From the IMG/VR virus record IMGVR_UViG_2554235297_000015: a stretch of DNA of 32,474 nucleotides. One strand, given 5' to 3'. The first letter of the stretch is position 1. Each line of letters begins with the position of its first letter. Under the pieces are notes generated by a model that was not told where the DNA came from, did not search any database, and saw only the letters and a list, made by a program, of their open reading frames with translations. The DNA comes from a virus (taxonomy: Duplodnaviria; Heunggongvirae; Uroviricota; Caudoviricetes). The position numbers and the translations under genes were made by a program. Below, one piece after another: positions 1 through 9,655 of the stretch.

Positions 1-237
1 ATGATGGTTAGAAATGAAGTAATGAACAAAGACTGGCACCGCGAGTACATCGTTGCCGCTGTGCACACCAAAGGTTTTACATTGCGTGAACTTTCTGAAC
101 GCGCTGGTCTAAAAAAAGACTCTTTAAAAAATGCACTGTATCGCTCATGCCCTAAATATGAACGCATCATAGCCGATGCTATTGGTGTGGAACCTGCGGA
201 GATCTGGCCAAGCCGGTATGCCAGTAAGGCGGCGTAA
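1..237 (+). CDS. ner: Ner-like DNA-binding protein (Ner/Nlp family)
   Basis: 78 aa; conserved DWHR near the N-terminus and IWPSRY near the C-terminus, as in Mu Ner and E. coli Nlp. Lies immediately upstream of the transposase, overlapping it by 1 nt (TAATG). Confidence 0.8.
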   Translation: MMVRNEVMNKDWHREYIVAAVHTKGFTLRELSERAGLKKDSLKNALYRSCPKYERIIADAIGVEPAEIWPSRYASKAA

Positions 238-2279
238 TGTTTTATTCAGCCAATGAGCTGGCCGGTCTTCCTGGTTTGCCCGGTACAGTTCAGGGGGTGC
301 GCTGGACGCTCAATCGGATCACAGAGACGCACCCAGAATGGAAGCGCAAGCGCGAAGGCACCAAAGCATTCGAGTATCACATCGACTGCCTGCCCGCTGA
401 AGCGCAGAAAGTTTTACGTAAGCGCCTGACTCATCAGGTCCTGGAAGATGCACAACTGCCCGCCGTAGTTGAGCAGAAAGCAGTTAAAAACGTCGCCGTT
501 CGCGATGAACTGGAGGTGATGGTCAAATGCCCGGAGCTGGCATTACGCGAAGTCCAGTCACTGACCGACAAGCAAAAGGCCATCGCTGATGCGCGGATAT
601 TGCTGGCTACTGAAGTGCATAAGCTGCGCGAGTATGCCGGAATGACCAGGAAGGCCGCTTTAAAGCACATCGTTGATGGTGTGCGCATGGGGGCGTTACC
701 TGACCGCATTATCGAAGCAGCGAATACTGCAAATGCACGTCAGGGAAAGCGAACCGGTGTCAGCACCGGCAGCCTGGATAGCTGGTACTCCAGCTGGGTG
801 ATGGCGCGCGGTGATGCCAATCAGTTACTGGCGTTACTGGCTCCCGGTCATCATAAGGGAACACCGTGGGAGCAGGTCTGGTGGTTGAGCGATTTCTTTA
901 TGTTCTATCGCTCATGGAAGCGCCCGACTGTTGAATATGCGTATCGTGAGTTTTCAGCCTGGTGGCATGAAAAACACGCGAATGATGCGGGAATGCTGGC
1001 GGCACTGCCTTCAGTTCACGCAGTAAGACGGGTGTTAAGCAGCGTCCCGGTGATTGTTAAAGAGCGTTTCCGCTCCACCGGTTCAGCCTGGCGTTCGCTC
1101 AATCCCTTTGTGCGGCGCGACTGGACATCATTACCGGTTAATGCGGTATGGGTCGGGGATGGTCACTGTATGAAAATGACCGCGTTTAACCCCCTGACCG
1201 GCAATATTTTCCGGCCAGAAGTGACGCTGGTTATGGATGCGGGGCAACGCTTTGTTGTGGGCTGGTCACTGTCCCTGTCGGAGAACGTGATAGCCGTTGC
1301 TGATGCGTTACGTTACGGCATGGCGCAGCACGGGATACCGCTGATTTATTACTCCGATAACGGGGGCGGTGAAAAAAACCGGGTGCTTGATGCCGATATT
1401 ACCGGGATTCTGCCCCGGCTGGGTGTGGAACATCACACGGGGATACCAGGTAACCCGCAGGGGCGCGGGGTGATTGAACGGGCAAACAAAGGAATACCCA
1501 AAGACGTGGCTCTGAGTTTCCAGACGTACTGCGCAAGGGATGCAGACAAGGAAACCGTAATGATGCAGCAACGGATTATGCAGTCAGCCATTAAGGCCAC
1601 CCACAAAGGGAAAGAACTGACAAAACGGCAGGTTAAGGCGAGGGATGAAATCCCCACCTTTGAGCAACTGCTGGCAGCCATAGAGCTGGAGGTCAGACGC
1701 TATAACAACCGGCCACACAGCAGCCTACCCCGCAAAGAGGATGGCGAATATTACAGCCCGGCAGCGTATCGCCGGAAACTGATAAAAGAGCAGAATGTTG
1801 AAATTGATTTCCTGTCGCCGGAAGAACTGCATGAAATGTTCAGACCGGAAGTGACGCGCAAAACATTTCGCGGGGAAATTCAGTTATTCAACAATATTTA
1901 TTACTCATATGATCTGGCCGCAGAGCACGGGAATGAAGTCAGGGTCAGTTACGATATTCATGATGCAAACAGCGTCATTGTCCGGCGGGCTGATGGCTCT
2001 TATATCTGCGATGCCATCTGGAACGGTAACAAGGTTGATGCCTTCGCTAAACCAGTTATCGAACAAAAACTGGAGAAACGCGTCAGGGGCCGCATTGCAC
2101 GGGCTACGCAGAAAATCGAAGAGGCTAAACGCGAGCTTACCCCGGCTATTACGCAGAAGCCTGACTTTAATCTGGGATATGGACTGGAGCGCCCGGAGAA
2201 AAAGGAAAAAGAAGAACTTTATTTATTCGCATCTGAACGCGAGCGCAATTTAAAGAAAAACGGCACAAACAACCGTTAA
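237..2279 (+). CDS. MuA-like DDE transposase
   Basis: 680 aa. N-terminal region resembles the MuA DNA-binding domain (NELAGLPGLP...). Central integrase-core-like region (WVGDGH...SDNGGGEKN). Size and position match Mu A. Confidence 0.9.
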   Translation: MFYSANELAGLPGLPGTVQGVRWTLNRITETHPEWKRKREGTKAFEYHIDCLPAEAQKVLRKRLTHQVLEDAQLPAVVEQKAVKNVAVRDELEVMVKCPELALREVQSLTDKQKAIADARILLATEVHKLREYAGMTRKAALKHIVDGVRMGALPDRIIEAANTANARQGKRTGVSTGSLDSWYSSWVMARGDANQLLALLAPGHHKGTPWEQVWWLSDFFMFYRSWKRPTVEYAYREFSAWWHEKHANDAGMLAALPSVHAVRRVLSSVPVIVKERFRSTGSAWRSLNPFVRRDWTSLPVNAVWVGDGHCMKMTAFNPLTGNIFRPEVTLVMDAGQRFVVGWSLSLSENVIAVADALRYGMAQHGIPLIYYSDNGGGEKNRVLDADITGILPRLGVEHHTGIPGNPQGRGVIERANKGIPKDVALSFQTYCARDADKETVMMQQRIMQSAIKATHKGKELTKRQVKARDEIPTFEQLLAAIELEVRRYNNRPHSSLPRKEDGEYYSPAAYRRKLIKEQNVEIDFLSPEELHEMFRPEVTRKTFRGEIQLFNNIYYSYDLAAEHGNEVRVSYDIHDANSVIVRRADGSYICDAIWNGNKVDAFAKPVIEQKLEKRVRGRIARATQKIEEAKRELTPAITQKPDFNLGYGLERPEKKEKEELYLFASERERNLKKNGTNNR

Positions 2280-2297: not shown

Positions 2298-3191
2298 ATG
2301 AGTTTAATTACGCAATTAAATGACGTAATGGCCCGTCGCGGCTATACGCAGACCCACGTCGCCCGTGCTATTGGTCGTAGCAGCGCCGTTATCAACCAGT
2401 ATTTACAGGGTAAATATCAGGGCGATATGGCTGATATTGAAGAACGCATTTCTGCCTTTGTGACCCGTGAGCGGGAAAAGGAAAACAGCCGCCGTATTAA
2501 AGCGAAATTTGTTGCCACCGGTATGGCTGCCAAAGGACTGGAAGTGCTGGCCTATGCTCACCTGGAATGTGAAATCTGCGTACTGTATGGCGCGGCAGGT
2601 CTTGGCAAAACAATGATTCTGCGTGAATACGCCGCCAGAAACCGGGATGCGGTCCTGATTGAAGCTGACCCGGGCTATACAGCCAGAACACTGCTTGAGG
2701 AGCTGTGCCGCCAGCTGGGGGTAAAAGTTCGCGGCAATATCCACGAACTGATTGATGCATGTGTGCGAGAACTGCGTGATTCCGGTCGCCTGCTGATGGT
2801 GGACGAGGCTGAACTGCTCCCCTATCGCGCACTGGAGGTTCTGCGCCGTCTGCATGACAAAGCGGGTATCGGGATTGTCCTGGCGGGTATGCCACGCCTT
2901 CTGATTAACCTCAAGGGACGTCGCGGTGAGTTCGCCCAGTTATACAGCCGTGTGGCGCTGGCGCTTAACCTGGGCGATACGCTGTCGCAGGAAGATTTTA
3001 ACCAGATAGCCACCGGGCTGATGCCGGAAGCAGTAGAACCGGAAATCAGCGAGGCGCTTTACGAACGCTCGCTGGGTAATGCCCGCCGCCTCTTCAAACT
3101 GGCGCGCGGTGTGTACCGGATTTGTGATATCAGCGATGCACCGGTCAGTGTGCAGGCCATTGATAAATTCGCAGAAATGTTAATTCACTGA
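2298..3191 (+). CDS. MuB-like AAA+ ATPase, transposition target-DNA activator
   Basis: 297 aa. Walker A GAAGLGKT, Walker B-like LLMVDEAE, N-terminal HTH-like segment. Sits directly after the transposase as in Mu. Confidence 0.85.
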   Translation: MSLITQLNDVMARRGYTQTHVARAIGRSSAVINQYLQGKYQGDMADIEERISAFVTREREKENSRRIKAKFVATGMAAKGLEVLAYAHLECEICVLYGAAGLGKTMILREYAARNRDAVLIEADPGYTARTLLEELCRQLGVKVRGNIHELIDACVRELRDSGRLLMVDEAELLPYRALEVLRRLHDKAGIGIVLAGMPRLLINLKGRRGEFAQLYSRVALALNLGDTLSQEDFNQIATGLMPEAVEPEISEALYERSLGNARRLFKLARGVYRICDISDAPVSVQAIDKFAEMLIH

Positions 3192-3430
3192 TGGAGAACA
3201 AGACGATGGACAAGCAGACCATTAACGCCGTCCGTTCCCGTGCCCGTGTGGCCATCCACACCACTGGTGGTCGTGTAACGGGACAACATCACCGTTTACC
3301 TGTGGTTTATGCCTGCCCGCCCGTGGGTGGTCCTGTATGGCCGGTAACGGAAATCATCCAGACATTCAGCGGCCTGCGCCGCGTGGTGAAAACATCCTGT
3401 ATCGACGGCTGCACCGTCGTATGGCAATGA
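3191..3430 (+). CDS. hypothetical early protein with several Cys residues
   Basis: ORF overlaps the B stop. The more likely start is ATG 3206, preceded by GGAGAA with a 7 nt spacer. No recognisable family. Confidence 0.4.
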   Translation: MENKTMDKQTINAVRSRARVAIHTTGGRVTGQHHRLPVVYACPPVGGPVWPVTEIIQTFSGLRRVVKTSCIDGCTVVWQ

Positions 3431-4878: not shown

Positions 4879-5097
4879 TTAATCGTCTTGCGACCAGTTC
4901 TCAATCGACAGCAGATGTTCATCCAGCGCCGCAGCCAGAACGAACTCCCCACGTTCCTGAAGGCCGTGCTGGAAGTTGCGTAATTCAGAATCCAGGGCGC
5001 TGAGGTTCAGACAGCCATTTTCTGAAAGCTGTTTAACCAGAAAGCTCCACGCAGCTTTGTTAGCAGTAATTGCTGCCGCAATTTCATCATCAATCAT
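4879..5097 (-). CDS. hypothetical acidic protein, 72 aa, reverse-oriented relative to the early operon
   Basis: The - strand ATG is preceded by AGGAG with a 7 nt spacer. A stem-loop follows the stop. It is the only convincing - strand gene in the window. Confidence 0.6.
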   Translation of the reverse strand: MIDDEIAAAITANKAAWSFLVKQLSENGCLNLSALDSELRNFQHGLQERGEFVLAAALDEHLLSIENWSQDD

Positions 5098-5131
5098 TTT
5101 TTAACTCCTGATTGGGTATGTTGGGGCAGCG

Positions 5132-5140
5132 ATTATGACA
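5132..5140 (-). promoter_or_regulatory. candidate extended -10 element (TGTCATAAT) for the reverse-oriented gene
   Basis: The - strand reads TGTCATAAT about 35 nt upstream of the - strand ATG, inside an 88 bp divergent intergenic region. Confidence 0.3.
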
Positions 5141-5185
5141 AGTGTTTTGTGGTTATAAGTTGATCAAAAACAATGAGTTACAACC

Positions 5186-5896
5186 ATGAAAGATAAATAC
5201 ATTGCCAAAATCAAAAAACTGTTACGCCTTGCCAAAGGAACATCAAGCCCGGAAGAAGCCGCTAACGCTATTGCAAAAGCCCAGGCTTATATGCGCCAGC
5301 ATGGTATCAGCGAAAACGACGCGGAATTGTTCGACATTCAGGAAGCTGCCAGCGCGGGTGCGCCGAGTGACGCCAGTACGCCGCCGCGTTATATGCACAT
5401 CCTGTGTGACCTGGTCTGTAAAGCCTTCGGTGTCGAGTGTTACATCTCCGGCGAATACCGGGCTTCTGGTTCACTTAAACGTTACGTGCGTTTTTATGGT
5501 CCTGACAGCCGCCCGGAAATCGCGGCTTACGCGTTTGATGTGCTTTCCCGTCAGATGATGGCAGAGCGCAAGAAATATCAGGATAAACACTGCAAACGTT
5601 GTGGTCCGTCCACGCGGGTAGCCCGTGGCGACCAGTTCTGCGAAGGCTGGGTCTTTGGTGCCCGTGATGTCATTGCGGTGTATGACGTCTCCCCGGAAGA
5701 AAAAAGCCGCCTTGAGCTTTACAGAAAGAACCTGCACAGCACTAAGGGACTGCGCGACGGGGATATGCGCACAGCTAAAGCGTGTCGGGGTGCAGAGTTT
5801 GCCGCTACTGCCGGTTTTATCGCCGGGAAGAACGCCAGGCTGCATCAGGGGGTTAATGGTCAGAGCAACAGACCGCTGGCACTGGGGAGGGTGTAA
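5186..5896 (+). CDS. hypothetical protein with a DUF2786-like N-terminus
   Basis: 236 aa. N-terminus KIKKLLRLAKGTSSPEEAANAIAKAQAYM resembles the DUF2786 signature common in phage proteins. Cys-rich C-terminal part (CKRCG). Confidence 0.6.
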   Translation: MKDKYIAKIKKLLRLAKGTSSPEEAANAIAKAQAYMRQHGISENDAELFDIQEAASAGAPSDASTPPRYMHILCDLVCKAFGVECYISGEYRASGSLKRYVRFYGPDSRPEIAAYAFDVLSRQMMAERKKYQDKHCKRCGPSTRVARGDQFCEGWVFGARDVIAVYDVSPEEKSRLELYRKNLHSTKGLRDGDMRTAKACRGAEFAATAGFIAGKNARLHQGVNGQSNRPLALGRV

Positions 5897-5898
5897 CG

Positions 5899-6126
5899 AT
5901 GGCTTTTAAACTTCTTAGTGTTACCGAAGCAATATACCAGCCGCCCGGAGAACGCCACGAATACAGGATGAATGACGGTAGCGCGGTGGTTGAGTTCCCC
6001 GGATATCCGGGGGCTTCCCGGTGGCGGTTCTATGACAGTGTGGGACGTCGGATTATTAAAAGAACCGTGCACAACAATATGAAGGCTGCCGTAGAACGTC
6101 ATAAGAGAAGGTTTAACTGCAAATGA
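5899..6126 (+). CDS. hypothetical early protein, 75 aa
   Basis: Strong RBS GGGGAGGG 5 nt upstream of the ATG. Confidence 0.55.
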   Translation: MAFKLLSVTEAIYQPPGERHEYRMNDGSAVVEFPGYPGASRWRFYDSVGRRIIKRTVHNNMKAAVERHKRRFNCK

Positions 6127-6353
6127 AAATTGAATTTTATGACCATGGGGTCACCGCAACTATCACTATTTCTTGTTGGTTCTGGGAGTTCCACCGTTAC
6201 TTCAGAGTTGTAGATGCTGCGCTGTTTGTTGCACCGGGAGCGTTACATCACAGTGGAATCGGTATTGTTATGAACACTGTCATCAGCGGTAAAACGGTCC
6301 CGATGTTGCGGGCGTTTAAAGTGGCAAAACAGGAGGCTGGCAATGGTCATTGA
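6123..6353 (+). CDS. hypothetical early protein, 76 aa
   Basis: ATGA start/stop overlap with the upstream gene. Weak RBS. Confidence 0.35.
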   Translation: MKIEFYDHGVTATITISCWFWEFHRYFRVVDAALFVAPGALHHSGIGIVMNTVISGKTVPMLRAFKVAKQEAGNGH

Positions 6354-6657
6354 TAAAACGATAACGATAGATGTAGCCATGAATACAGGTCTGGCGCTTA
6401 TCGGTTATGGCTATATCACTTTTATGTCATTCAGGTGGTTGATTTCTTCGCTCTTTAAGCAGCGTGAAAAACATCGTTGTAAAGACAAGCGCGCGAAGGC
6501 GCTAAATGCGTTTAATGACGCTTTTGATATTGACCATATGCAACAGGGCGACCCCGCACGCGTAATTACCCGGGGAGATATTGTAATTCTTGTGTACCGG
6601 AATGAAAAAAATGAACAGGAGACAACCAGTGAGTCAGCAAACCAGAATAAGCGATAA
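6343..6657 (+). CDS. small membrane protein, 104 aa
   Basis: AGGAGG 6 nt upstream of the ATG. Hydrophobic segment GLALIGYGYITFMSFRWLISSLF followed by a charged tail. AT-rich coding sequence. Confidence 0.55.
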   Translation: MVIDKTITIDVAMNTGLALIGYGYITFMSFRWLISSLFKQREKHRCKDKRAKALNAFNDAFDIDHMQQGDPARVITRGDIVILVYRNEKNEQETTSESANQNKR

Positions 6658-6793
6658 GAGTCTGACCAGACTGATTGCCGATGCGGACAAGGTGCTGGAG
6701 CGGAACTCCCCCGTTGCCGATGAGGAATGGTGGCAGGATTTCCGGGCTGCAATGCTGGAACTTCAGGAACGTCGTCGGGAGGTGTTGAAGTGA
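6629..6793 (+). CDS. hypothetical early protein, about 54 aa
   Basis: GTG 6629 preceded by AGGAGA with a 6 nt spacer. The ORF track opens at 6590 in the same frame. Confidence 0.4.
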   Translation: MSQQTRISDKSLTRLIADADKVLERNSPVADEEWWQDFRAAMLELQERRREVLK

Positions 6794-7059
6794 GTGAATT
6801 AAAGTGTCGAATTAATGGCAATCAGATAGAACCGTGTGCGGTACTGGCAAAAGCACTCGAATATGGAAATCCAGCCTTTAAGAGTAAAGGCATATTTATC
6901 CCGGAACGCGTGAATATAAACACCGGCGAGCCAGGCTTAGACATTGCTCAAATTCACTCCGGCCAATATGTCGGTCGTGGTGTTGCCATGTGTTTTTGCC
7001 CGTTCTGTGGTGAAAGTCTGAAAACATGGAAAAAGGAGGCAACCAGTGAGCGAGATTAA
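6790..7059 (+). CDS. hypothetical Cys-rich protein, possible zinc ribbon, about 89 aa
   Basis: GTG 6790 preceded by GGGAGG with a 7 nt spacer, GTGA overlap with the upstream stop. Contains CxxxxxxxxxC and CPFCG. Confidence 0.45.
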   Translation: MSELKCRINGNQIEPCAVLAKALEYGNPAFKSKGIFIPERVNINTGEPGLDIAQIHSGQYVGRGVAMCFCPFCGESLKTWKKEATSERD

Positions 7060-7543
7060 CTATCAGGCACTGCGTGAGGTGGCAGAGGCCGCGAAGGGGG
7101 ATACGACGTGGCAGAACCTACAGGCTTTTCATGCTGCGGCTACGCCGGAGGTTGTGCAGGCGTTGCTGGATGAAAACGAAAGACTGTGTCGCGATCTGAT
7201 AGCTCGTAATGGTGAGATTGAAGGGCTTCGGGAGTGGGCAGAAGAACTGGAGGCACGGGAGGTGGCTTTGCCAGTAGCGTCATGCATTGTTGAAGATGGA
7301 TGCATGTGTGTTGATGGGTTCAGTGAGTATGTAGGTCACTCGCTACCTGATGGAATGCATGAGCTTTATGCTGCCCCGCCAGCGTCGGTAGTGCCGGAAG
7401 GACTAGTTAAAGCAGTGCGTTTCTATGAACAGGTAAAGTGTGAGAATCCGCCAGTCGAAACCGGAGCATGGAAAGACGCGGTTGACTGGGTACTCAACGA
7501 GGCTTGCCAGGCTGTAAATATTGACGCCAAAGGAGGTGCGTAA
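7046..7543 (+). CDS. hypothetical protein, possibly Ead/Ea22-like
   Basis: GTG start preceded by AAGGAGG. N-terminus ALREVAEAAKGDTTWQ...AATPEVVQALLDENERL resembles the Ead/Ea22 prophage family. The family call is from memory. Confidence 0.5.
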   Translation: MSEINYQALREVAEAAKGDTTWQNLQAFHAAATPEVVQALLDENERLCRDLIARNGEIEGLREWAEELEAREVALPVASCIVEDGCMCVDGFSEYVGHSLPDGMHELYAAPPASVVPEGLVKAVRFYEQVKCENPPVETGAWKDAVDWVLNEACQAVNIDAKGGA

Positions 7544-7712
7544 TGCGTGTAGCGTTTATCGGTTTATTACCATACCCGACTCGTTTTTGGGCTTCTGCGC
7601 TAATTGCAAAGCCACATGCCCTGATGGCTGACAGCATCATCCCGGCACAAAAGCGCCATACCGGTATTGCTGCTGCACGACGCGAAGCAAAGAAACGCAG
7701 GAGAGCAAAATG
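7544..7712 (+). CDS. small basic protein, 56 aa
   Basis: Not in the ORF track (below its size cutoff). TAATG overlap with the upstream stop, ATGA overlap with the downstream start. Confidence 0.3.
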
Positions 7713-7898
7713 ATGAAAAACCGTAAGGCAAGACTGCTGATAGCAAAGCCAGGGCAACTTATCCGTATCTCAAATCGACTTGTTGTTCACTATAGATATC
7801 TTGGTTTTAGGGAGTGGTCCTCTATTCGTTTTTACGGTGTCTGGCGAAACAGAAGCGCGACACAAAACCGCTGGAAGAATCACACTAACGCAAAGTAA
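7710..7898 (+). CDS. hypothetical early protein, 62 aa
   Basis: AGGAGA upstream of the ATG. Confidence 0.4.
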   Translation: MMKNRKARLLIAKPGQLIRISNRLVVHYRYLGFREWSSIRFYGVWRNRSATQNRWKNHTNAK

Positions 7899-7915
7899 TT
7901 AAATAATAACCAATA

Positions 7916-7943
7916 GCAGACCAAAAAGTATTTTTTGGTCTGC
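7916..7943. promoter_or_regulatory. perfect 12 bp-stem palindrome (GCAGACCAAAAA gtat TTTTTGGTCTGC)
   Basis: Seen directly in sequence, followed by a second short inverted repeat CCAAAA-N6-TTTTGG (7943..7960). Lies in a 60 bp gap after the run of small early ORFs. Confidence 0.45.
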
Positions 7944-7956
7944 CAAAAGTGATGTT

Positions 7957-8244
7957 TTGGTCATTATGAAGATTGAACAAATCGGAATGGCAGCTTTCAG
8001 GCAACAGGCTGAAAGCGGTGGCGTGGATGAGTTCGTCGTGCAGCGGTTCGGTGGTGTGTATCATCTATTCGCTGTGAATCGCCGCGCCGGGGTGTCCTAT
8101 TTTCTACAGGAACGTCGTGGCGATTACAAGACATGGCTGTCTCTTGACCGTGCCGCTGCGTTCTTGTCAGGGATTGGCGTTTCACGTTTTACCGTGCGTT
8201 TTGAGGATAACAAACATGCTGAAAAAGATGATCGGGGCCATTAA
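7957..8244 (+). CDS. hypothetical protein, 95 aa
   Basis: ORF whose 3' end overlaps the gemA start. Alternative start ATG 7966. Confidence 0.4.
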   Translation: MVIMKIEQIGMAAFRQQAESGGVDEFVVQRFGGVYHLFAVNRRAGVSYFLQERRGDYKTWLSLDRAAAFLSGIGVSRFTVRFEDNKHAEKDDRGH

Positions 8245-8614
8245 AGCCGGTCAGGCGTATCTGGGGTGGGATGATGCCCTTTATCGCCAGACGCTGGCCC
8301 GCCTGACCGGTAAAACCAGCACCACACGCTGCAATCTCGATGAACTGCGCATCATCCGGGAATACATGCACGAACAGGGATTCCCGCGCAAGGCACCCGC
8401 TGGTAAAGGTCGCCGCCCTCGTGTTGCAATGAGCAGAAAATCAGTATTATCCAAAATTGAAGCGTTGCTGGCTGATGCCGGTCGTTCCTGGGCGTATGCA
8501 GAAGGACTGGCATCTCACATGTATAAGCAACATGTGATCGAATGGCTGACGGATGAACAGCTTTTTGGAGTGATGGTGGCGCTGGTTAAAGATTCAAGAA
8601 GGAGAAATCAATGA
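8216..8614 (+). CDS. gemA: GemA-like protein (Mu gp16 family)
   Basis: N-terminus MLKKMIGAIKAGQAYLGWDDALYRQTLARLTGK resembles Mu GemA. GAGGAT 7 nt upstream of ATG 8216. The ORF track opens the same frame earlier at 8117. Confidence 0.75.
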   Translation: MLKKMIGAIKAGQAYLGWDDALYRQTLARLTGKTSTTRCNLDELRIIREYMHEQGFPRKAPAGKGRRPRVAMSRKSVLSKIEALLADAGRSWAYAEGLASHMYKQHVIEWLTDEQLFGVMVALVKDSRRRNQ

Positions 8615-9087
8615 TGAAAAAATGGTTGTTTTGTTTAGTAGGGGTTATTTTCTCTTGTTCTGTGCTGGCACAGACAGAGGAACAGGCGCAAAAGGAACTG
8701 AAACGTTATCAGGATATGAAGCCATTGGCTGAACAGATGCTTCGGGAAAGTGGAAAACTTTATTACGCTATGCCAGAAGCTGCATCGCAGTATCAGCAGG
8801 GAAATATTGAAGAGTGGAAGAATATCAAAAAAGGACTAAAACAACTGGATGAACAGGCCAGTAAACTGGGGGACGACCCGCTTGATCCTGTGTATGGTTC
8901 CTGCATAAAAATGAAAAACCAGCTACAGGATTACTGGTCTAACGTTATCAGGGATGACAGGCAGTTTCTGGAGCGTTCAAGAAATCAGTTTAAAGAATAT
9001 CGTATGGATTGTTTTGATTCGTTTGTTTTTGGTAAAGAGCAAATAGAATCAAGAAAAGGCCTGGTTATTCTAGACCTGACTAAATAA
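8611..9087 (+). CDS. secreted or periplasmic protein of unknown function, 158 aa (AT-rich moron)
   Basis: AAGGAG RBS. N-terminal signal peptide MMKKWLFCLVGVIFSCSVLA with an AxA-like cleavage site before QTEE. Coding sequence is clearly more AT-rich than the flanking genes. Its own terminator follows. Confidence 0.7.
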   Translation: MMKKWLFCLVGVIFSCSVLAQTEEQAQKELKRYQDMKPLAEQMLRESGKLYYAMPEAASQYQQGNIEEWKNIKKGLKQLDEQASKLGDDPLDPVYGSCIKMKNQLQDYWSNVIRDDRQFLERSRNQFKEYRMDCFDSFVFGKEQIESRKGLVILDLTK

Positions 9088-9098
9088 GACTTAGTTTA

Positions 9099-9125
9099 GC
9101 CCCTGCCATGCAGGGGCTTTTTTTG
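9099..9125 (+). terminator. rho-independent terminator
   Basis: GCCCCTGC catg CAGGGGC stem-loop followed by TTTTTTTG. Confidence 0.8.
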
Positions 9126-9130
9126 TGGTC

Positions 9131-9158
9131 TGTACAGGCGATCATGTATGGCTATAAT
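9131..9158 (+). promoter_or_regulatory. candidate sigma70-type promoter for the Mor/C gene
   Basis: TGTACA (9131..9136), 16 bp spacer, perfect TATAAT (9153..9158), about 30 nt upstream of the ATG at 9188. Confidence 0.35.
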
Positions 9159-9187: not shown

Positions 9188-9655
9188 ATGCAGACCTTCA
9201 GTGAAACAGATCTTCGCGATGCGCAGGCACTGCTGCCCGATTCCGTGCAGCAACTGATTAGCGTGATTGGCTTCCCCGCCCTGACCCGGTTGATTCGTTC
9301 TTTTGGTGGCGTGACGTTAAGCGGTAAAACCGGCGTACACGCCGAACGCACCGGCGGTGTCCATGCCCTGTTACATGACGTGCTCACCGAAGACGAAATC
9401 AACAAACTGATCCGCTTTCTTGGCGGTGCTCCGTTTTACATTCCCCGTTGCGATCATGCGTTACGTGCCCTGCGTAACACCCGTTTTATGGCTGATTTAC
9501 AGCAGCATGTAAAAGACGGATGCTCACACCGGCAGGCGCTGGCACTGCTCTGTCCCCGTTACGGCATTTCAGACCGGTACGCATGGCAGCTGATACACCG
9601 ACGACAAAAACAGACTTCGCTGAAAAGCCCCACCCAGGTGGGGCTTTTTGATTAA
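9188..9655 (+). CDS. Mor/C-family transcriptional activator (Mu middle/late activator family)
   Basis: 155 aa. C-terminal HTH-like segment ...RQALALLCPRYGISDRYAWQLIHRR typical of Mor/C proteins. Located between gemA and the lysis genes as in Mu. GGAGA RBS. Confidence 0.7.
   Translation: MQTFSETDLRDAQALLPDSVQQLISVIGFPALTRLIRSFGGVTLSGKTGVHAERTGGVHALLHDVLTEDEINKLIRFLGGAPFYIPRCDHALRALRNTRFMADLQQHVKDGCSHRQALALLCPRYGISDRYAWQLIHRRQKQTSLKSPTQVGLFD
9627..9649 (+). terminator. rho-independent terminator overlapping the last codons of the Mor/C gene
   Basis: GCCCCAC ccag GTGGGGC stem followed by TTTTT. Confidence 0.6.

What the first reader, a model, noticed from the sequence alone, without database searches (positions are those of the whole stretch)
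6343..6657. Small early membrane protein with a strong RBS, candidate host-killing or division-inhibitor function
104 aa with one clear hydrophobic helix followed by a highly charged tail (KQREKHRCKDKRAKA...), AGGAGG 6 nt upstream, AT-rich coding sequence. Small early membrane proteins of phages are often toxic to the host when expressed alone.
Basis: inference. Interest (0 to 1): 0.45.

Follow-up and report, generated by a model that had tools for sequence, protein, structure and literature searches.

The report
Uncharacterised DUF4752 gene in Mu-like prophage
The ORF is a real, conserved but optional early gene of a Mu-like prophage of E. coli E2348/69, already catalogued as the function-unknown family DUF4752; it probably encodes a small membrane-tethered protein, and nothing found here shows that it kills the host or blocks division.

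Summary
The ORF at 6343-6657 encodes 104 aa, has AGGAGG 6 nt upstream, and is 42.5% GC against 54.3% for the window. It is a real gene: Pfam DUF4752 matches at E=1.5e-38, and dN/dS is about 0.26.

The window is the Mu-like prophage of E. coli O127:H6 E2348/69. RefSeq already annotates this gene as "DUF4752 family protein".

The "clear" hydrophobic helix is only marginal in this copy (Kyte-Doolittle 1.24). However, an uncharged N-terminal segment followed by a polybasic stretch is conserved across the family. That fits an N-out/C-in membrane anchor carrying a small cytoplasmic helix-plus-beta-hairpin module. The module has no detectable structural relative.

The gene is a single-gene cassette:
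- It is bounded by repeated Shine-Dalgarno junctions.
- It is present in some and cleanly absent from other closely related Mu-like prophages.
- It also sits in early accessory regions of lambdoid, P22-like and P1-like phages.

The prophage's own Kil homologue is a different gene (3206-3430). The host-killing or division-inhibitor reading therefore stays a base-rate guess without specific support. This is a known unknown of low novelty.

The parts
6330..6337 (+). Upstream cassette junction CAGGAGGC. It contains the Shine-Dalgarno AGGAGG (6331-6336) of the DUF4752 gene and lies inside the 3' end of the upstream gene.
   Evidence: Sequence read. In the alignment of prophages with and without the gene, the indel begins right after this 8-mer.
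6343..6657 (+). DUF4752 family gene, 104 aa (RefSeq WP_000234091.1).
   Evidence: Pfam PF15944 E=1.5e-38. phrog_667. RefSeq annotation. dN/dS about 0.26.
6367..6456 (+). Residues 9-38: hydrophobic, Gly/aromatic-rich helix, the probable N-out/C-in membrane anchor. Alignment columns 12-27 are uncharged almost family-wide. A basic or polar residue sits at column 28/31 (R31 in this copy), and W32 is nearly invariant.
   Evidence: Hydropathy against in-window controls. Column statistics. AF2 gives one continuous helix over residues 3-60, with block-mean pLDDT of 90-92 over residues 11-30.
6457..6501 (+). Residues 39-53: polybasic juxtamembrane stretch KQREKHRCKDKRAKA. K/R is conserved at family columns 39, 43, 45, 46, 49, 50 and 52.
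6499..6606 (+). Residues 53-88: the conserved C-terminal module, a helix (residues 47-60) followed by a beta-hairpin (72-75 / 81-84). It is the most constrained part of the protein (pN/pS 0.29).
   Evidence: AF2 of residues 45-92 gives pLDDT 83.9. Regional pN/pS. Conservation.
6607..6654 (+). Residues 89-104: low-confidence tail. Compared with the 96-aa alleles (ending ...EQEAAQ*), a 1-nt difference near 6620-6625 lets this lineage read 8 codons further, into the start of the next gene.
   Evidence: DNA alignment. Allele list. pLDDT below 50 at 89-98 and 102-104. The 104-aa form is itself common, on >=1000 contigs.
6614..6633 (+). Downstream cassette junction AACAGGAGACAACCAGTGAG: the SD and GTG start of the next gene. 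It is repeated at 7031-7050 in front of the Ead/Ea22-like gene.
   Evidence: the repeat finder family D1. Indel boundary.
6123..6353 (+). Upstream 76-aa gene (phrog_1001, unknown function). Its stop codon overlaps the DUF4752 start by 11 nt, which suggests translational coupling.
6629..6793 (+). Downstream 54-aa gene (phrog_14672 / phrog_7520, unknown function). It starts 29 nt inside the DUF4752 tail. In prophages that lack DUF4752 it follows the 76-aa gene directly.

Best explanation
The ORF encodes a member of the uncharacterised phage family DUF4752. It is an accessory, single-gene cassette in the early (Pe-type) operon of a Mu-like prophage.

Inferred, not shown: the protein inserts into the inner membrane through its N-terminal hydrophobic helix, with a short acidic N-terminus outside and the C-terminus inside. 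This places a polybasic juxtamembrane helix and a roughly 40-residue helix-plus-beta-hairpin module at the cytoplasmic face. There the hairpin pairs with a second copy or with a target by beta-strand addition.

Inferred from genetics: its job is a non-essential, host- or competitor-directed function during early lytic development. It is not a core step in transposition, replication or lysis, and it is not the phage's dedicated division inhibitor.

Shown: gene reality, family membership, cassette anatomy, early-operon position, dispensability and the two-module architecture.
For: - Family and selection: Pfam and PHROG membership. Purifying selection, strongest on the C-terminal module.
- Architecture: charge distribution follows the positive-inside rule, with residues 1-12 net -1 and residues 38-56 net +6. 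The same pattern holds across 32 members, with an uncharged core at columns 12-27 and then K/R-rich columns 39-52.
- Hydrophobicity: the Hessa score of the segment is far below every soluble protein in the window, and half the family passes Kyte-Doolittle 1.6.
- Structure prediction: AF2 gives an isolated 58-residue helix that does not pack on the C-terminal module. The C-terminal module folds confidently on its own, pLDDT 83.9.
- Early operon: the gene is tightly overlapped with both neighbours, has no + strand promoter-like site nearby, and the operon ends at a terminator at 9098-9118 just before mor.
- Accessory cassette: it occupies a fixed slot in 12 Mu-like loci. Two of these carry a 56%-identical allele between 93-98%-identical flanks. 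It is cleanly absent from two otherwise syntenic prophages, with the indel bounded by the CAGGAGGC repeat.
- No conserved partner: distant members sit in another Mu-like early region and in lambdoid nin regions with different neighbours.
- Division inhibitor elsewhere: the Kil-family gene is at 3206-3430.
Against: - In this copy the hydrophobic segment is weak: Kyte-Doolittle 1.24, summed Hessa +3.7, with R31 inside it. I could run no dedicated topology predictor and no experiment.
- The uncharged core is only about 16 residues family-wide, which is short for a membrane span.
- No partner, target or phenotype is known.
- The full-length AF2 model has pTM 0.31.
- Rare chimeras replace the hydrophobic half with an Ead/Ea22 coiled-coil N-terminus. 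This would also fit a purely oligomerising role for the N-terminal helix. These chimeras are singletons, seen on 1-2 contigs each.
Confidence: 0.55

Rival explanations
1. One reading: a host-killing protein or cell-division inhibitor that is toxic when expressed alone. It would act by membrane damage or by blocking the divisome from the membrane.
For: - It is a small, early, probably membrane-associated protein.
- By analogy, small early membrane proteins of other phages can block division. One example is PhiNM1 Gp11 in S. aureus (PMC11237401, listed).
- The gene sits in the Mu-type semi-essential early region, which in Mu holds host-directed functions.
Against: - There is no similarity to Kil, DicB, Hok/Gef or any annotated toxin in four HMM libraries.
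- The prophage has its own Kil-family gene right after the MuB-like gene. It matches phrog_2679 at E=5.7e-35, is 34% identical to Mu Kil over 44 aa, and has the same 74-aa length.
- The most constrained part is a folded cytoplasmic module rather than the hydrophobic helix. That is unlike simple membrane-damaging peptides.
Confidence: 0.12
2. A soluble oligomeric protein. The N-terminal hydrophobic helix forms the core of a helical bundle rather than a membrane span. The basic stretch plus the helix-hairpin module bind nucleic acid or a protein, in the manner of a half SpoVT/AbrB/MazE-type unit.
For: - Hydrophobicity is weak in this copy.
- Polar or small residues recur on one helix face, at columns 14, 21, 28 and 35.
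- One chimera joins an Ead/Ea22 coiled-coil N-terminus to the DUF4752 C-terminal half.
- hhalign places residues 56-86 on MazE residues 20-48, the helix-hairpin I expected from the sequence pattern.
Against: - The MazE and AbrB alignments are not significant: E=0.31 and E=0.55, probability 0.2% or less.
- No member gives a weak Pfam hit to SpoVT/AbrB.
- Weak chance-level hits go to membrane proteins instead: COX6C, HemY_N and SieB.
- The charge asymmetry around the hydrophobic segment is what a signal-anchor shows.
Confidence: 0.15
3. A superinfection-exclusion or defence gene that protects the lysogen, expressed from the repressed prophage like a moron.
For: - The cassette shows optional presence or absence, allele replacement within a fixed slot, and low GC.
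- It is shared among many temperate phage types of Enterobacterales.
Against: - No promoter-like site lies in front of it. It overlaps both neighbours inside the early operon, which in Mu-type phages is repressed in lysogens.
- At most about 12 residues would face the periplasm, where DNA entry is usually blocked.
- It has no PADLOC hit.
Confidence: 0.1

Closest known systems
Pfam DUF4752 (PF15944) / PHROG 667, e.g. VT2-Sakai H0158, Salmonella phage BTP1_045, phage D6 orf94
   Same: It is a full-length member, with 84/84 model positions matched. It has the same architecture of N-terminal hydrophobic helix, polybasic stretch and helix-hairpin, and the same kind of location among early accessory genes.
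   Different: It sits in a Mu-like transposable prophage rather than a lambdoid one. This lineage has a weaker hydrophobic segment and an 8-codon C-terminal extension. No member has a known function.
Phage Mu Kil (Mup05) and its family, PHROG 2679
   Different: It is not homologous to Kil. The Kil-family gene of this prophage is a separate ORF at 3206-3430. Mu Kil has no hydrophobic helix: its best Kyte-Doolittle window is 0.78. Mu itself has no DUF4752 gene.
Small N-out/C-in single-span phage proteins such as Pf3 coat protein; membrane-tethered early proteins such as phi29 p16.7 (both from my own knowledge, not tested here)
   Same: They share a short N-terminus, one hydrophobic helix followed by R-W and basic residues, and a functional part on the cytoplasmic side. 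phi29 p16.7 likewise combines an N-terminal anchor with a small dimeric C-terminal domain in an early gene.
   Different: There is no sequence or fold similarity. I retrieved no structural match to any solved protein.
Ead/Ea22-like modular early proteins (PF13935)
   Same: It is a frequent neighbour, within 3 kb in at least 35 of 84 loci and 389 nt downstream in this window. It belongs to the same mosaic pool of early accessory genes. One chimera joins an Ea22 N-terminus to the DUF4752 C-terminal half.
   Different: It is a different family. Ea22 proteins have no hydrophobic N-terminal helix, and the neighbourhood is not obligatory.

Membership tests
DUF4752 (Pfam PF15944) | Score above the curated gathering threshold over the whole model. 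| tested here: met
   131.1 bits against a cut-off of 27; residues 7-90 match model positions 1-84 of 84. All 32 aligned relatives also match.
DUF4752 (Pfam PF15944) | Shared architecture: N-terminal hydrophobic helix, polybasic stretch, conserved helix-hairpin. | tested here: met
   Alignments A1-A3 and column statistics. AF2 models.
Mu Kil family (PHROG 2679) | Sequence similarity to Kil profiles. | tested here: not met
   The PHROG scan of the ORF gives only function-unknown families: phrog_667, phrog_29388, phrog_9744 (E=3.8e-4) and phrog_16281 (E=0.058). phrog_2679 is matched by a different ORF, 3206-3430.
Other phage division inhibitors or small toxins with Pfam models (lambda/Rac Kil, DicB, Hok/Gef) | Any profile match, even a weak one. 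| tested here: not met
   No such family appears at E<=10 for any of the 32 members. PADLOC and NCBIfam give nothing.
Integral single-span membrane protein (N-out/C-in) | Hydrophobic span long and hydrophobic enough to cross the bilayer. | tested here: inconclusive
   This copy scores Kyte-Doolittle 1.24 and Hessa +3.7. 15 of 32 relatives score 1.6 or higher. Holin controls score 2.4-2.6. No dedicated predictor was available.
Integral single-span membrane protein (N-out/C-in) | Positive-inside charge asymmetry. | tested here: met
   N-flank net -1, C-flank net +6. The asymmetry is conserved across the family.
Integral single-span membrane protein (N-out/C-in) | Physical membrane association and topology. 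| not testable with these tools
   This needs cell fractionation and PhoA/GFP fusions.
SpoVT/AbrB/MazE swapped-hairpin fold | Significant profile or fold match. | tested here: not met
Superinfection exclusion protein SieB (PF14163) | Profile match. | tested here: not met
   Only one of 32 members gives a chance-level hit, E=0.25.

The most novel reading that the evidence does not exclude
DUF4752 proteins are a still-undescribed class of membrane-tethered early effectors. They are shared as single-gene cassettes among Mu-like, lambdoid, P22-like and P1-like temperate phages of Enterobacterales. Their cytoplasmic helix-hairpin module binds and neutralises a host inner-membrane-associated machine, such as a divisome component, FtsH or a membrane-bound anti-phage system. 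Allele replacement within a fixed slot would then reflect adaptation to variable targets.
Probability: 0.25. Interest if true: 0.5.

Novelty: already known. Interest (0 to 1): 0.2.

Why it matters
The gene itself is already catalogued, so the result has two uses.

First, it corrects the functional guess. The Kil-type division inhibitor of this prophage is a different gene.

Second, it gives a concrete, testable description of a widespread unknown:
- a two-module protein, with a probable membrane anchor plus a small cytoplasmic hairpin module;
- carried as an RBS-to-RBS cassette;
- gained, lost or swapped between unrelated temperate phages of E. coli, Salmonella, Klebsiella, Erwinia and Hafnia.

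If a target were found, it would add one more entry to the list of phage early accessory functions. It would not resolve a long-standing question.

Tried and rejected
- **Sequence search of solved structures.** A single sequence and a family profile found nothing below E=0.087. The weak hits are single-span membrane proteins or chance.
- **SpoVT/AbrB/MazE idea.** I suspected from the sequence pattern that the C-terminal module is half of a SpoVT/AbrB/MazE domain. hhalign aligned the expected residues but without significance, and the folds did not match. I rejected it as a membership claim.
- **Literature.** DUF4752, PF15944 and the locus tags or accessions of homologues appear in no paper in the library.
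- **Species-representative genomes.** The pattern scan returned no confirmed relatives. The diverse alignment was too variable to use for a pattern scan.
- **Kil homologue against the phage collection.** tblastn of the 74-aa protein found no match at E<=1e-3. Homology to Mu Kil therefore rests on the PHROG profile and a weak direct BLASTP, E=2e-5.
- **Domain chimeras as evidence for module independence.** They are singletons, seen on 1-2 contigs each, so I treat them as weak evidence.
- **Non-coding or antisense explanations.** Rfam finds nothing in or near the ORF. The 136-aa antisense ORF at 6411-6821 has no support, and the + frame shows purifying selection.
- **A conserved partner gene.** The neighbours differ between Mu-like, lambdoid and P1-like contexts.

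Full report
**What the window is.** Window 5000-9000 is 100% identical to the chromosome of E. coli O127:H6 str. E2348/69, NC_011601.1 around 2.72 Mb. The RefSeq annotation and my family scans show a Mu-like transposable prophage read left to right:
- a Ner-like HTH gene;
- a MuA-type transposase (window 237-2279);
- a MuB-type AAA ATPase (2298-3191);
- a run of small early genes;
- GemA/gp16 (8216-8614);
- a strong terminator (9098-9118) and a promoter-like site (9131-9158) in front of Mor (9188-9655);
- holins, an endolysin, terminase, and head and tail genes.

The layout parallels phage Mu, which I fetched for comparison.

**The observation.**
- The ORF at 6343-6657 (+) encodes 104 aa.
- AGGAGG lies at 6331-6336, exactly 6 nt before the ATG.
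- The ORF is 42.5% GC against 54.3% for the window, among the lowest values in the early region.
- The basic stretch KQREKHRCKDKRAKA is at residues 39-53.

The ORF is not a chance reading frame:
- It matches Pfam DUF4752 over the full model (131 bits against a cut-off of 27, E=1.5e-38) and phrog_667.
- RefSeq names it "DUF4752 family protein".
- Across 26 distinct nucleotide alleles, the median pairwise dN/dS is 0.26.
- The start is conserved. Relatives begin at the same position with ATG or GTG behind AGGAGG-type sites.

**The hydrophobic helix is less clear than stated.**
- The best 19-residue Kyte-Doolittle window is 1.24. That is below the classical 1.6 threshold and similar to soluble proteins of the same window. 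The two holins score 2.4-2.6.
- On the Hessa biological scale the segment scores +3.7 kcal/mol as a simple sum. That is well separated from all soluble proteins in the window (6.5-20.6) and close to the signal peptide of the 8611-9087 product (3.9).
- Across 32 family members, 15 exceed 1.6.
- Column statistics show an essentially uncharged core at positions 12-27. Acidic residues lie before it. K/R is at position 28 in 66% of members, R/E/Q at position 31, W32 is nearly invariant, and positions 39-52 are K/R-rich.
- In this copy the N-flank is net -1 and the C-flank net +6.

This is the charge pattern of an N-out/C-in signal-anchor. I call the membrane helix probable, at about two in three, not demonstrated.

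**Structure prediction.**
- With a 32-sequence alignment, AF2 predicts one continuous helix over residues 3-60 (block-mean pLDDT 90-92 over residues 11-30). It does not pack against the rest of the protein. A beta-hairpin at 72-75 / 81-84 follows at low confidence (mean pLDDT 69, pTM 0.31).
- Predicted alone, residues 45-92 give a confident helix-plus-hairpin (pLDDT 83.9).
- Profile searches of PDB sequences give nothing.
- The sequence pattern of the module reminded me of the second half of a SpoVT/AbrB/MazE domain. hhalign aligned exactly those residues but with E=0.31. I record this as a rejected lead.

**Family size and distribution.**
- An exhaustive HMM search of 1.84 billion cluster representatives finds only 53 clusters at E<=1e-3. 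The family is narrow.
- Phage records with a relative come from Escherichia, Shigella and Stx phages, Salmonella, Klebsiella, Erwinia and Hafnia.
- At least 210 of 5426 complete E. coli genomes carry a blastn-detectable copy, always chromosomal.

**Locations in other phages.** All are early accessory regions:
- next to attR in VT2-Sakai, which places it downstream of int once the phage is circular;
- between the replication genes and ninB or Q in P22-like BTP1 and another lambdoid prophage;
- among Ead/Ea22-like genes in the P1-like phage D6;
- at the equivalent early position of a second, distant Mu-like phage whose copy is only 29% identical.

Neighbouring genes differ between these contexts. 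Ead/Ea22-like genes are frequent neighbours but not obligatory. Phage Mu itself has no member.

**Cassette anatomy.**
- In 12 Mu-like loci the gene occupies one fixed slot: DUF2786, a 75-aa gene, a 76-aa gene, DUF4752, then a 54/62-aa gene.
- Two of these loci carry an allele only 56% identical, between flanks that are 93-98% identical. The allele's first and last roughly 10 residues match the Mu-type allele, so this is an intragenic mosaic.
- Of 58 E. coli genomes with the upstream block, I inspected three. One has the gene and two lack it.
- The DNA alignment shows a clean indel bounded by the 8-mer CAGGAGGC. This is the Shine-Dalgarno region of DUF4752 on one side and of the next gene on the other.
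- A related 20-nt SD-GTG junction recurs at 6614-6633 and 7031-7050.
- The same alignment shows that the 104-aa form differs from the 96-aa form by a 1-nt change near the 3' end. This lets translation run 8 codons into the next gene. The 104-aa form is itself common.
- The gene overlaps its upstream neighbour by 11 nt and its downstream neighbour by 29 nt, and has no promoter-like site of its own on the + strand.

**Function.** No experimental information exists in the searchable literature.
No toxin or division-inhibitor family matches in Pfam, PHROGs, NCBIfam or PADLOC.
- The prophage already has a Kil-family gene in the canonical place, immediately after the MuB-like gene. It is 74 aa like Mu Kil, matches phrog_2679 at E=5.7e-35, and is 34% identical to Mu Kil over 44 aa.
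- Selection is strongest on the folded C-terminal module (pN/pS 0.29) rather than on the hydrophobic helix (0.47). This argues against a simple membrane-damaging peptide.
- The clean natural deletions show the gene is dispensable.

My best reading is a membrane-tethered accessory early protein. Its cytoplasmic hairpin module engages a partner, either itself or a host or competitor component, at the inner face of the membrane. Only the architecture and the genetics are shown; the localisation and the partner are inferred.

A few chimeras are consistent with two separable modules: an Ea22 N-terminus joined to the DUF4752 C-terminal half, and a DUF4752 N-terminal half joined to DUF4406. They are singletons, so the evidence is weak.

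**Verdict.** The gene is real, early and probably membrane-associated. The functional interpretation is an untested base-rate guess. The object is an already catalogued domain of unknown function, so novelty is low. Its modest interest lies in the clear cassette behaviour and in being a tractable unknown shared by many temperate enterobacterial phages.

Noticed in passing
window 3206-3430 (+): A 74-aa ORF directly after the MuB-like gene is the prophage's Kil-family gene. It matches phrog_2679 'Kil protein for bacterial septation inhibition' at E=5.7e-35. It is 34% identical to Mu Kil over 44 aa and has the same length. It has no tblastn match in the phage collection at E<=1e-3, and no Pfam or NCBIfam model matches it.
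   Followed up: partly
window 8611-9087 (+), terminator 9098-9118, promoter-like site 9131-9158: A 158-aa ORF of low GC (40.3%) lies between GemA and Mor. Its N-terminus looks like a signal peptide (MMKKWLFCLVGVIFSCSVL) and it may be a lipoprotein. It has no significant hit in Pfam (three sub-threshold hits, E about 0.04-0.05), PHROG, NCBIfam or PADLOC. It is present in only some related prophages. It sits just before the strongest terminator of the early region and looks like a moron-type insertion.
   Followed up: no
window 6326-6345, 6614-6633, 7031-7050: Conserved SD-containing gene junctions, A(A/C)AGGAG(G/A)C...(A/G)TG, recur in front of successive small early genes. Translated, they give the shared C-terminal '...EQEA...' endings of unrelated upstream proteins. 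They coincide with the boundaries of a natural single-gene indel.
   Followed up: partly
L014 and L023 (IMG/VR Mu-like contigs), match at 8001-8285 / 8001-8279: This is allele replacement inside a fixed slot. The DUF4752 gene is only 56% identical to the window's copy while both flanks are 93-98% identical. The first and last roughly 10 codons are of the window's type, which indicates recombination within the gene with a lambdoid-type allele.
   Followed up: partly
proteins P0047, P0042, P0036, P0057 (metagenome/Logan contigs): These are rare chimeras. One joins an Ead/Ea22 N-terminus to the DUF4752 C-terminal half. Another joins the DUF4752 N-terminal half to DUF4406. Two others have unrelated N-termini. 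Each was seen on 1-2 contigs only.
   Followed up: partly
window 4879-5097 (-): A 72-aa gene is annotated on the opposite strand in the middle of the otherwise unidirectional early operon. It has no Pfam or PHROG hit.
   Followed up: no
window 7046-7543 (+): An Ead/Ea22-like protein, normally a lambdoid 'ea' region gene, sits inside the Mu-like early region 389 nt downstream of the DUF4752 gene. This shows that the early accessory gene pool is shared between transposable and lambdoid phages.
   Followed up: partly
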